This document shows, piece by piece, positions 49,301-52,300 of a DNA stretch of 64,000 nt. Source of the stretch: Escherichia coli (lineage in GTDB: Bacteria; Pseudomonadota; Gammaproteobacteria; Enterobacterales; Enterobacteriaceae); assembly GCF_044324875.1 (NCBI RefSeq), contig NZ_CP172185.1; one strand, written 5' to 3'. Every line of letters starts with the position of its first letter. Position 1 is the stretch's first letter. The position numbers were made by a program.

Positions 49301-52300
49301 GCTGCCGGAAAAAAGCGCTTCACAATCTGATACACCGCATCCCCGTGACCGCCGGTTACGTCAATACCGATATGCTCAACGTTATAGCGAAAGGTGAACT
49401 CTTCAATGACCTTCGCCTGCGCCTCAAACTCCAGCCCCTGCACCCGCCGCGTCTCCACGGTGCGAAAACGCCCGCCCGGTACGGCTGGCGGCACCACCAC
49501 GACAACCGCCCCGCTGTCACCGTTCCCGCTACTGCCGTTGGCGTCGTACCCAATCCACACAGGGCGGTTCCCCATCGGACGCGGTGCAAACGGCTTCCAG
49601 TCCGGCCACTCGTCGTATCCGTCAACACCGCAGCCAATCAGGATATTCAGGTTAAATGCCGATTCCCCTTCGCGAGCAAATTCACACATGTAGAGATTGC
49701 GGAACTCGTCTTCAGTGTTATTGCGCCGGATTTTGTCAATGTTGGTTAACGTCCATCCCTGACTGACCACATCTTCCAGCGTCACAATTTGCCGCCAGAT
49801 ATAGTCAGGACAGATAAGGCCGTTATGAAGCGCATTCCAGCTCACATCAAAATGCTGACGTTTATGAGTACGAAGCCCTTCATTCCAGTGATCGCCGTTC
49901 CAGTATGCATACGCCTCATGTGTTTCACTTGATGGCGTGGAAAAATAGGTACACCGCAAACCATCCAGCGTTGCCATAGCAGCAGCCACCTTGCGCAGCT
50001 CTGCGAAACGCCCCGTCCAGAAAAACTCATCAAAATACAGATTCCCTGTGTACGCTTGCGCGGTGGCCGCAGAAGTGCCGAGAAAATGCAGCTCTGCACC
50101 GTTGGAGAGGATGACTTTATCGCCCCCTTTCAGTTCCACATCAACTTCAGATGCAGCCTTCTGAATAATGCTTTTAAACTGGAGCGCCTGACGACGAGAC
50201 GCAGACAAAAAAATCTGGTTACGCTGGTAAGGTTGTGCCACATCGTCACGCAGCGCCATCAGCAGCGCTTCCTGCGCAAAATACCAGGTCGCCCCAATCT
50301 GGCGGGATTTCAGGATCATCCTGTCAGTAATTCCGGCACGCTCACAGGCACCGATAGCATCAAGCCATTTGCGCTGGTGTCCGGCCAGCCTGTCGGTAAT
50401 TTTTTCCCGCAGCGCCGCGATCTGTTCCGGCGTGAAATGATTTTTGCGTTTTTTCGCCCGGCCTTTCTTTCCTGTTGCCGTCTCATCCGGCAGACCGTCA
50501 TGCAGCTTTTTAAGCTGACGGGTCAGCAAATCAATTTCCTTAAAGTCCCCGCCTGTTTTATTCTGTTTTTCCGTGAGCTGAATGAGTCGCGCATCCATGG
50601 ACTGCGTGACACGCTGAACCGGGGGCGTCTCATCCCACTGGTCGCGTTTTTTCCACGAATGGATCGTGTTCTGGTTGATACCCATAAGGCGGCAAATTTC
50701 CGCAACAGGGTAACCCTGCCAGTACAGCTGGCGTGCCCGCTGGCGAACAAATGTATCCTGAATCATTTCTCCCCCTCATGTGATTCAGGCAGTTTACTCA
50801 CCCCTTACAGGCCTCCTGCCATGCCCGGTGTTGTCGGCATTCGCTTACAACAAACGCACTTTGTCTGTCCCTGCCCCGTTTTGCCATCATGAGACAAACG
50901 ATCATCACGAGGGCCCGACAATGCCTGAACAGAAAAAAACATCCCGTAAAACATTCCGCGTGGCCGTTTCCGGTCCCACCGCAGACGGTCGCGAAATCAG
51001 CGCCGCAGATTTGCGCGCGGCGGCCAGTAACTTCAACCCTGAGATTTACGGCGCACGCGTGAACGTGGAGCACTGGCTTTCACCGGTTCCGTCCAGTGAA
51101 TTTTCCGCCATGGGTGATGTGACGGCACTGAGCACAGAAGAAATCACCGAAGGTCCGCTGGCCGGTCGTACTGCGCTGTATGCGGAAATCGAACCCACCG
51201 ACCGCATGAAAAATCTGGTCTCCCGGGGTAAGAAAATTTACTCCAGTATTGAGCTGGCACGAAATTTCACCCCTACGGGCACCCCGTATCTTATTGGCCT
51301 TGCCATGACAGACACCCCGGCAAGCATCGGCACGGAGCGTCTTCAGTTCGCCCTGCAGCAGCGCCGTTCGGTCATGACCTTCAATAATCAGCAGACGGAA
51401 GCACCGATGTTCTCTGACGCCATTGAGGCTGAAGTGATCGAACTGACGGAGCGCCGCAGCGAGGAAGGTGCGCAGTGGTTTAACCGCGTGATGAACATGA
51501 TTGGGCGAGGACGCAGGGCTGACGACACCCGGTTCTCCCGCATTCATGACGCCGTTGAGGGGATAGCCTCATCGCATGCCGACCTTCTCGACCGCTTCAG
51601 TGCACTGGAATCGCGCCATCAGGCAGACAGACAGAAAGTCGCCACCCTGTCCACTGAGCTGGCAGAGCTGAAAAACAGACTGCGCGGACTGGACGCTGAT
51701 CAGCAAAGTCGTTTTACGGCAACCGGCGGGCAGTCCAGACAACTGGCTGACTACTGACAGAAATAACCACAAGAGGTGATAACCGATGAATCTGATCATG
51801 AGCGATGCCGCGCGGGCCGAGCTTTTTGCTTACCAGGCACAACAGGCAGAGATGAATAACATCACGATATCTGCGCTCTCCTCCCGCTTTTCGGTACAAC
51901 CGGCAGTGCAGCAGAGATTTGAAAACGCATCAAAGGAAAGCCATGATTTTCTTCAGAAAGCCAACAGCATTGGTGTGACAGAGCAGAAAGGTGAAAAGGT
52001 ACTCCTGGACACCACCGGGCCGGTTGCGCGCACGAACAGCAGTTATGACGGTACAAATCGTCGTAACCCGCTGAATGTGGTGGACATGAAAGCGCGACGC
52101 TATGAGTGCGAGCAGGTGAACTACGACACCTTCATCTCCTACCCTCAGCTTGACATGTGGGCCGGACACCCTGACTTCCAGCTGCGTGTGAGTCGCCAGA
52201 TTGCCAGACAGGTGGCACTTGATCGCATCATGACAGGTTTTAACGGTACGCACCATGCGGAAGTCTCGGATATAAAAAAACACCCGCGACTTGAGGACGT

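What the first reader, a model, noticed from the sequence alone, without database searches (positions are those of the whole stretch)
50767..50920. Divergent late promoter region between P and O with an Ogr-type TGT-N12-ACA element
The dyad at 50832-50849 matches the activator-binding element of P2 late promoters, which indicates an Ogr/Delta-type late activator. No ogr gene is seen in this window, so it is presumably at the unseen right end of the prophage. Only one clear dyad was found although two divergent promoters are expected.
Basis: partly seen in the sequence, partly recalled or inferred. Interest (0 to 1): 0.2.

Follow-up and report, generated by a model that had tools for sequence, protein, structure and literature searches.

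The report
Shared Ogr-type late promoter site
The 154-base gap between the terminase gene P and the scaffold gene O of a P2-like E. coli prophage holds one conserved binding site for the phage's Ogr-type late activator; as in phage P2, it probably serves both outward-facing late promoters, so the finding is correct but ordinary.

Summary
TGT-N12-ACA lies at 50832-50849. It is the core of a perfect 24-bp palindrome, TGTTGT-N12-ACAACA (50829-50852), which is unique in the 64-kb window (0.00 expected by chance). The bare 6-base motif is not enriched (14 found, 15 expected).

- **Conservation:** in about 50 diverged relatives the half-site ACAAC, a -35-like TTG and two -10-like hexamers keep fixed distances from the dyad.
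- **Specificity:** a weight matrix trained only on relatives finds one strong site in the window and one more in the sibling prophage. That second site lies in the other divergent late gap, between FI and D.
- **Single dyad:** this is normal. The P2 reference record annotates one activator site for both pO and pP, 55.5 bp from each mapped start.
- **Activator gene:** no ogr lies in the window. Two near-identical prophages (99.7% and about 99.25% identity, the second at the same glsA-copA site) carry an identical Ogr/Delta zinc-finger gene just after D, about 5.6 kb past the window end.

This is a new member of a known kind and of low interest. Start sites and activator dependence are inferred, not measured.

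The parts
50829..50852 (.). Activator site: perfect palindrome TGTTGT-N12-ACAACA, centre 50840.5. The core TGT-N12-ACA is at 50832-50849.
   Evidence: Read directly. Unique in the window, 0.00 expected. Scores 26.7 bits with a weight matrix from relatives. ACAAC is invariant in 35 P-O and 22 FI-D site variants.
50791..50796 (-). Predicted -10 hexamer of the leftward promoter PP. It reads TAAACT on the minus strand. Its centre is 47 bp from the dyad centre.
   Evidence: It aligns with the conserved AGATTA block (TAATCT on the minus strand) of relatives. The geometry matches P2. Inferred; no start site has been mapped.
50784..50785 (-). Predicted PP transcription start, about 55.5 bp from the dyad centre. 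It gives an 18-19 nt leader to the P ATG.
   Evidence: Inferred by analogy with the mapped P2 start at 3016, which is 55.5 bp from the centre of the P2 site.
50861..50866 (+). -35-like hexamer TTGTCT of the rightward promoter PO, 18 bp upstream of the -10.
   Evidence: TTG is conserved at a fixed offset in relatives (TTGAGA or TTGTAT). No full sigma-70 consensus promoter is found in the gap.
50885..50890 (+). Predicted -10 hexamer CATCAT of PO. Its centre is 47 bp from the dyad centre.
   Evidence: The block TGCCATCAT (or GATGAT) is conserved in a stretch of the alignment that is almost gap-free from the dyad.
50896..50897 (+). Predicted PO transcription start, about 55.5 bp from the dyad centre. 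It gives a leader of about 25 nt to the O ATG.
   Evidence: Inferred by analogy with the mapped P2 start at 3127.
49015..50766 (-). Gene P, terminase large subunit. It is the first gene of the leftward P-Q operon.
   Evidence: Pfam Terminase_5, Terminase_6N and Terminase_6C. 87.5% identical to P88 gpP over the first 200 aa.
47960..49015 (-). Gene Q, portal protein. It is the second gene of the leftward operon.
   Evidence: Pfam Phage_portal.
50921..51757 (+). Gene O, capsid scaffold/protease. It is the first gene of the rightward late operon, which continues through N, M, L, the lysis genes and the baseplate and fibre genes to about 62178.
   Evidence: Pfam Phage_GPO, 295.8 bits. Gene order.

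Best explanation
The dyad is the binding site for the prophage's own Ogr/Delta-family zinc-finger activator. It sits midway between two weak, activator-dependent late promoters that fire in opposite directions. PP drives P and Q (terminase and portal). PO drives O, N, M and the rest of the head, lysis and baseplate genes.

The proposed sequence of events is as follows. After induction the activator is made from the ogr gene at the right end of the prophage. It binds the site about 55 bp upstream of each start point. It then recruits host RNA polymerase to both promoters, as Ogr does at P2 pP/pO, where it contacts the RNA polymerase alpha subunit (from my own knowledge of P2, not checked here).

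A second site of the same kind lies between FI and D and would drive the tail operon and the D-ogr unit. On this reading two bidirectional sites run the whole late regulon, and ogr gains positive feedback.

Shown here: the site, its uniqueness, its conservation, its geometry, and the presence of the activator gene in near-identical prophages. Inferred: the start points, the binding of this particular protein, and the activation itself.
For: - **Site and uniqueness:** a perfect TGTTGT-N12-ACAACA occurs once in the window, with 0.00 expected.
- **P2 precedent:** the P2 record annotates one 'activator binding site; pO, pP promoters' at 3057-3087, with starts at 3016 and 3127. Taking the P2 core as 3060-3083, both starts lie 55.5 bp from its centre. 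All three annotated P2 sites contain GTTGT, the same half-site that is invariant here on the other strand.
- **Conservation:** 51-56 distinct P-O gaps came from phages whose P protein is 67-91% identical to this one. In them the dyad, a -35-like TTG and both -10-like blocks are the conserved columns. The O-side spacing is nearly free of gaps.
- **Specificity:** the clade motif GTT[C/G]T-N12-ACAACAA occurs once in the window and once in L004, at the FI-D gap. The weight matrix finds exactly two strong sites in the whole prophage L208, 26.7 and 28.8 bits against a next best of 5.2. It also finds the same two gaps in P88.
- **Symmetry:** the -10-like hexamers lie 47 bp either side of the P-O centre and 46 bp either side of the FI-D centre.
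- **Weak core promoters:** no consensus sigma-70 promoter is found in the gap.
- **Activator gene:** an 83-aa protein matching PF04606 Ogr_Delta is 42% identical to P2 Ogr over 53 aa. It is identical in L004 and L208, is annotated by PGAP as 'Ogr/Delta-like zinc finger protein', and is followed by a terminator. 61 of 81 related D loci show the homologue just downstream of D.
Against: - No transcription start, footprint or expression data exist for this phage. The -10 and -35 assignments are analogies.
- The window itself ends 5.6 kb before the expected ogr, so the gene is seen only in near-identical relatives. No 100% identical source genome was found.
- The bare TGT-N12-ACA motif is at chance frequency in the window.
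- In most relatives, and in this prophage's own FI-D site, the left arm reads TCT rather than TGT. The textbook consensus is therefore only loosely obeyed.
- The clade weight matrix does not pick out P2's sites. The P2 pO/pP site scores 1.2 bits, with four unrelated P2 positions scoring higher, and the pV and pF sites are not among the top hits. Recognition may differ in detail from P2.
Confidence: 0.85

Rival explanations
1. The site is real but serves only one promoter, most likely PO. On this reading P and Q are driven by some other element.
For: The invariant half-site ACAACAA lies on the O-proximal side, and the P-proximal arm is degenerate in relatives. The window lacks the CGCGCGCG block that accompanies the P-side -10 in relatives.
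Against: P2 has mapped starts on both sides of one site, 55.5 bp each way. A -10-like hexamer is conserved on the P side at the mirror distance of 47 bp. The 74 bp between the site centre and the P start codon hold no other conserved element and no consensus promoter. The FI-D site shows the same two-sided layout.
Confidence: 0.07
2. The dyad binds a regulator other than the Ogr homologue, such as a host factor or another phage protein. On this reading the likeness to the P2 element is superficial.
For: Binding was not tested. The clade consensus T[C/G]T-N12-ACAACAA differs from the textbook motif, and the clade matrix scores P2's sites poorly.
Against: The invariant 5-mer GTTGT/ACAAC is the same one shared by all three annotated P2 activator sites. 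The site occurs only in the two gaps that head late operons. Every related phage whose right end was recovered encodes an Ogr/Delta protein. The position relative to the genes matches P2.
Confidence: 0.05
3. The inverted repeat works as a nucleic-acid hairpin, for example a terminator, an attenuator or an RNA element, rather than as a protein-binding site.
For: The 43-nt stretch folds at -12 kcal/mol, z-score -2.1.
Against: It lies upstream of both predicted starts, has no T-run and was not called as a terminator. In most relatives the left arm has C where pairing needs G, while the right arm never changes. There is therefore no compensatory change.
Confidence: 0.02
4. The palindrome is a chance feature with no function.
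For: TGT-N12-ACA alone occurs 14 times in the window, as chance predicts.
Against: The 24-bp form has 0.00 expected occurrences. It is conserved in position and sequence across phages whose P protein is as little as 67% identical. A matrix that excludes it still finds it as the only strong hit in the window.
Confidence: 0.01

Closest known systems
Bacteriophage P2 pP/pO divergent late promoters with their shared Ogr site (NC_001895, 3016-3127)
   Same: Same flanking genes (P leftward, O rightward). One activator site in the middle, and the same GTTGT half-site. A 12-bp spacer and weak core promoters. The gap is of similar size (173 bp in P2, 154 bp here). The activator is encoded after gene D at the right end and is followed by a terminator.
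   Different: The site here is a perfect palindrome, whereas P2's reads TGTTGT-N12-CCATCC. The conserved half-site faces O here and faces P in P2. The activator is only 42% identical over 53 aa. It has CX2CX24CX4C spacing instead of CX2CX22CX4C, and an 11-aa longer tail with a conserved SHRG motif.
P88 / Xuanwuvirus group of P2-like coliphages (NC_026014 and relatives)
   Same: This is the closest sequenced phage group, at about 76% DNA identity across the region. The gene order is the same, with the F tail operon inverted so that FI and D diverge. It also has two sites, one in P-O and one in FI-D, and an Ogr homologue 72% identical to this one.
   Different: P88 sites read TCT-N12-ACA in both gaps. 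The window's P-O site has the fully symmetric TGT. The window lacks the GC-rich block next to the P-side -10. In the P88 RefSeq record the ogr homologue is not annotated.
P2 pV and pF, and the satellite P4 Psid/PLL promoters (unidirectional Ogr/Delta-dependent promoters)
   Same: A GTTGT-containing dyad about 55-58 bp upstream of the start in P2 pV and pF. The statement about P4 Psid/PLL rests on my own knowledge of that system, not on a tool result.
   Different: Those sites each serve one promoter. This prophage has no separate V promoter, because the R, S and V genes overlap. Its F-operon site is bidirectional.
Stenotrophomonas phage Smp131 PP'/PO'
   Same: A single TGT-N12-ACA-like dyad is listed for both promoters (nt 4381-4398 read on either strand), and the phage has an Ogr-like protein (PMC3931495).
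   Different: A distant host and phage. The prediction there was also made from sequence alone.

Membership tests
P2-type Ogr/Delta-dependent late promoter | Upstream dyad matching TGT-N12-ACA | tested here: met
   TGT-N12-ACA at 50832-50849, extended to perfect 6-bp arms.
P2-type Ogr/Delta-dependent late promoter | Dyad centred about 55 bp upstream of the transcription start | not testable with these tools
   No start-site data exist. Indirect support comes from conserved -10-like hexamers 47 bp either side of the centre, which would place the starts about 55.5 bp away as in P2.
P2-type Ogr/Delta-dependent late promoter | Poor match to the sigma-70 consensus, so the promoter is silent without the activator | tested here: met
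   No consensus promoter is called in 50600-51100. The -35-like element is TTGTCT with an 18-bp spacer, and the -10-like element is CATCAT. Silence without the activator was not tested.
P2-type Ogr/Delta-dependent late promoter | Heads operons of virion and lysis genes | tested here: met
   The site is flanked by P-Q on one side and by O-N-M and downstream genes on the other. The only other strong site in the prophage heads FI and D.
P2-type Ogr/Delta-dependent late promoter | A cognate Ogr/Delta-family activator encoded by the same phage | tested here: met
   The gene is not in the window. It is present and identical in two sibling prophages, after gene D: L004 (99.7% identical over its overlap with the window) and L208 (about 99.25%). 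The window's own right end is unseen.
P2-type Ogr/Delta-dependent late promoter | Transcription depends on the activator and on the C-terminal domain of the RNA polymerase alpha subunit | not testable with these tools
   This needs reporter assays or in-vitro transcription.
Ogr/Delta zinc-finger activators (Pfam PF04606) | Profile match above the curated threshold | tested here: met
   52.4 bits against a cut-off of 26.3, covering residues 3-49.
Ogr/Delta zinc-finger activators (Pfam PF04606) | Four-cysteine motif CX2CX22CX4C | tested here: met
   The four cysteines are at positions 4, 7, 32 and 37. The middle spacing is 24 rather than 22, owing to a two-residue insertion relative to P2 Ogr. 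The motif is kept, but the spacing is a variant.

The most novel reading that the evidence does not exclude
In this P88-like lineage, inversion of the F tail operon has left the whole late regulon under just two bidirectional activator sites, P<->O and FI<->D. The activator gene itself lies downstream of one of them, in the D-ogr unit, which would give built-in positive feedback.

The sites keep one invariant half (ACAACAA) and a loose other half (T[C/G]T). The activator is a divergent Ogr with CX2CX24CX4C spacing and a conserved C-terminal SHRG tail. Together these hint at asymmetric recognition, in which one half-site anchors the protein. That could inform how Ogr-type proteins read DNA and activate in two directions.
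Probability: 0.3. Interest if true: 0.3.

Novelty: new member of a known kind. Interest (0 to 1): 0.12.

Why it matters
It matters mainly for annotation. The result fixes the late control region of a P2-like prophage that occurs in E. coli genomes: near-identical copies (99% identity or more) were found in six complete E. coli records. It shows that a single dyad is the expected layout, and it points to an Ogr gene that is missing from the P88 reference annotation. It also gives a clade-specific site model, T[C/G]T-N12-ACAACAA, that finds the late promoters of this phage group cleanly. It does not change what is known about P2-type late gene control.

Tried and rejected
- **Source genome:** a codon-degenerate 41-mer from the sibling's FII gene found nothing in the representative-genome collection. 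No E. coli complete genome is 100% identical across the window's phage part; the best are 99.3-99.4%. The window's true right end therefore stayed unseen.
- **Motif enrichment:** I tested whether bare TGT-N12-ACA is enriched. It is not. The other in-prophage matches (36646, 37461, 40412, 40769, 47111, 56017) score low with the clade matrix and were dropped as late sites.
- **Wrong spacer:** one search used a 13-N spacer by mistake. It was repeated correctly.
- **Within-phage similarity:** I tested whether the P-O and FI-D sites of one phage resemble each other more than sites from different phages. The result was not significant (same-phage 10.3 against cross-phage 10.0 matches out of 21, permutation p 0.34). 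In this prophage, however, the two sites share 16 identical bases.
- **TAATCT in the FI-D gap:** I first read it as a -10 on the wrong strand. Its offset fits the -35 region of the FI promoter instead.
- **Hairpin and terminator reading:** rejected.
- **Literature:** the original P4 Delta footprinting paper (PMC177091) is not held in the library, and a search for rpoA109 gave nothing useful. Statements about alpha-subunit contact therefore rest on my own knowledge.

Full report
**What is at the coordinates**

The window carries E. coli chromosome (97-98.5% identical to complete E. coli genomes). From about 36.3 kb onward it carries a P2-like prophage that runs off the right end. The integrase is at 36345-37388 on the minus strand, next to glsA.

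Within the prophage, Q (portal, 47960-49015) and P (large terminase, 49015-50766) read leftward. O (scaffold, 50921-51757), N, M and the downstream head, lysis, baseplate and fibre genes read rightward. The finding's interval 50767-50920 is exactly the P-O gap.

The stated dyad is there: TGTCGGCATTCGCTTACA at 50832-50849. It is the core of a perfect palindrome with 6-bp arms, TGTTGT-N12-ACAACA, at 50829-50852, centre 50840.5.

**Is it more than chance?**

The textbook motif alone is not. TGT-N12-ACA occurs 14 times in the window against 14.98 expected. It is absent from the sibling's 10.7-kb right arm.

The 24-bp form occurs once against 0.00 expected. The real weight comes from comparison with relatives.

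- I collected the P-O gap from 80 related viral contigs whose P protein is 67-99% identical. I aligned 56 distinct versions.
- The conserved columns fall into four blocks:
  - a P-side block AGATTA (AGTTTA in the window), which reads TAATCT or TAAACT on the minus strand;
  - the dyad, in which ACAAC is invariant;
  - a TTG about 16-18 bp to the right of the dyad centre;
  - TGCCATCAT.
- The stretch from the dyad to the O-side block is almost free of gaps (a single one-base gap in one of 56 sequences), so the spacing is fixed.
- A weight matrix trained on 55 site variants from relatives, leaving out this prophage's own two sites, scores 50826-50855 at 26.7 bits. The next best hit in the window scores 5.2. 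The best score in 30 shuffled windows was 12.2.

**The 'missing' second dyad**

The P2 reference record annotates one feature, 'activator binding site; pO, pP promoters', at 3057-3087. It gives the P operon start at 3016 and the O operon start at 3127. Reading the P2 core as TGTTGT-N12-CCATCC (3060-3083), both mapped starts lie 55.5 bp from its centre.

Phage Smp131 is described with a single dyad read on both strands for PP' and PO' (PMC3931495). Every relative aligned here has one site. One dyad for two divergent promoters is therefore the normal layout and not a gap in the evidence.

**Predicted promoter anatomy (inferred)**

| Element | O side (plus strand) | P side (minus strand) |
|---|---|---|
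| -35-like | TTGTCT 50861-50866, then an 18-bp spacer | none recognisable |
| -10-like | CATCAT 50885-50890, centre +47 from the dyad centre | TAAACT 50796-50791, centre -47 |
| Start, by the P2 rule | about 50896 | about 50785 |
| Leader to the ATG | about 25 nt | about 19 nt |

Both -10-like hexamers sit in the conserved blocks. A consensus scan finds no sigma-70 promoter in the gap, which fits promoters that need an activator. None of the starts has been measured.

**A second site, outside the window**

Contig L004 is 99.7% identical to window 60384-64000 and continues 7.1 kb further. It carries T, E, FII and FI on the minus strand (FI start at 7913), D on the plus strand (8074-9165), and then an 83-aa ORF (9209-9460).

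The 160-bp FI-D gap holds GTTCTC-N12-ACAACAA at 7987-8010. This is the only strong matrix hit in L004, at 28.8 bits. It shares 16 identical bases, TTCGCTTACAACAAAC, with the P-O site.

In the complete prophage of E. coli 24A16CRGN010 (L208) the matrix finds exactly these two sites and nothing else above 5.2 bits. L208 is about 99.25% identical to the window over 23 kb and is flanked by glsA and copA. P88 shows the same two gaps. In 45 related FI-D gaps, -10-like blocks again sit about 46 bp either side of the centre.

All four late transcription units therefore appear to hang on two bidirectional sites: P-Q, O-to-fibre, FI-to-U and D-ogr.

**The activator gene**

No Ogr/Delta homologue is in the window. 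tblastn with P2 Ogr and with the sibling's protein gives nothing better than E = 0.7. A six-frame scan for CxxC...CxxxxC finds only two out-of-frame artefacts.

- The 83-aa ORF after D matches Pfam Ogr_Delta at 52.4 bits, against a cut-off of 26.3.
- It aligns with P2 Ogr at 42% identity over 53 residues and keeps all four cysteines, with two extra residues between the pairs.
- It is identical in L004 and L208, where PGAP names it 'Ogr/Delta-like zinc finger protein'.
- It is followed by a terminator at L004 9578-9597, as in P2.
- In window coordinates it would lie near 69.6 kb.
- 61 of 81 related D loci show the homologue just downstream of D. I did not examine why the other 20 show none.
- P88 has the homologue at 34476-34724, but its RefSeq record does not annotate it.

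One caveat remains: the window's own right end was not recovered.

**How this compares with P2 in detail**

All three annotated P2 sites contain GTTGT (pO/pP TGTTGT, pV TGTTGT, pF GGTTGT) and have a looser partner half. In this clade the same 5-mer is the invariant half, read as ACAAC. The partner half is T[C/G]T preceded by G/T-T. One firm half and one loose half are therefore a family trait and not a peculiarity of this phage.

The differences are these:

- The firm half faces O here and faces P in P2.
- The window's P-O site is fully symmetric.
- The clade matrix scores P2's own pO/pP site at only 1.2 bits, below four unrelated positions in P2.
- The activator is a divergent subfamily member with a conserved C-terminal tail, IPW..SHRG.

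**Rivals**

- **Hairpin function:** unlikely. The fold is modest (-12 kcal/mol, z -2.1). The element lies upstream of both predicted starts. The common G-to-C change in the left arm is never compensated in the right arm.
- **Chance:** excluded by conservation.
- **A different binding protein, or service to one promoter only:** neither can be excluded without experiments. Neither has positive support beyond the loose left arm.

**Verdict**

This is a well-behaved member of the P2-type late promoter class in a P88-like E. coli prophage. Confidence in the mechanism is about 0.85. Novelty: new member of a known kind. Interest is low.

Noticed in passing
window 8071-33500 (minus strand): A 6875-aa ORF (11409-32036) has a BapA-type N-terminus, many Ig-like repeats, FG-GAP repeats and RTX repeats. 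It is flanked by type I secretion genes: a TolC-like OEP (32145-33500), an ABC transporter (9243-11405) and HlyD (8071-9246). It is a chromosomal giant-adhesin locus unrelated to the finding.
   Followed up: partly
window 35133-37388; L208 1-2032 and 35616-38120: The prophage is integrated between glsA and copA. A near-identical prophage occupies the same site in E. coli 24A16CRGN010.
   Followed up: partly
window 46086-46905: The prophage carries a ParE/RelE-type toxin (46534-46806) and an HTH protein (46086-46460) on the minus strand. A 21-nt tandem direct repeat (46864-46905) lies just upstream and is probably their operator.
   Followed up: no
window 46900-47300, especially 47111-47128: A 400-nt non-coding stretch lies before a 197-aa ORF that has no Pfam match (47300-47893). 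It contains TGTTG-N8-CAACA, which has the same half-sites as the late site but a spacer 6 bp shorter. It also contains several other repeats. The cos site would be expected near here. The element scores low with the late-site matrix and remains unexplained.
   Followed up: partly
L001 (P88, NC_026014) 34476-34724: The P88 reference record has no CDS for its Ogr/Delta homologue, which lies between D and the hok-like gene.
   Followed up: yes
L048 and L129 (IMGVR_UViG_2778261463_000013): On this contig a D gene (93% identical) lies only about 4 kb from a P gene (99% identical). In the intact prophage the two are about 18 kb apart. This suggests a deleted or rearranged relative.
   Followed up: no
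L001 (P88) 18638-18667, minus strand: A third, weaker match to the late-site matrix (16.1 bits) lies inside the P88 lysis gene region. It has no counterpart in this prophage.
   Followed up: no
window 50829-50852 and L004 7987-8010: The two late sites of this prophage share 9 of 12 spacer bases and a 16-nt identical run. In the P88 group the two spacers share only 1-2 of 12 bases. Possible causes are gene conversion or a lineage-specific spacer preference. The general within-phage similarity test was not significant.
   Followed up: partly
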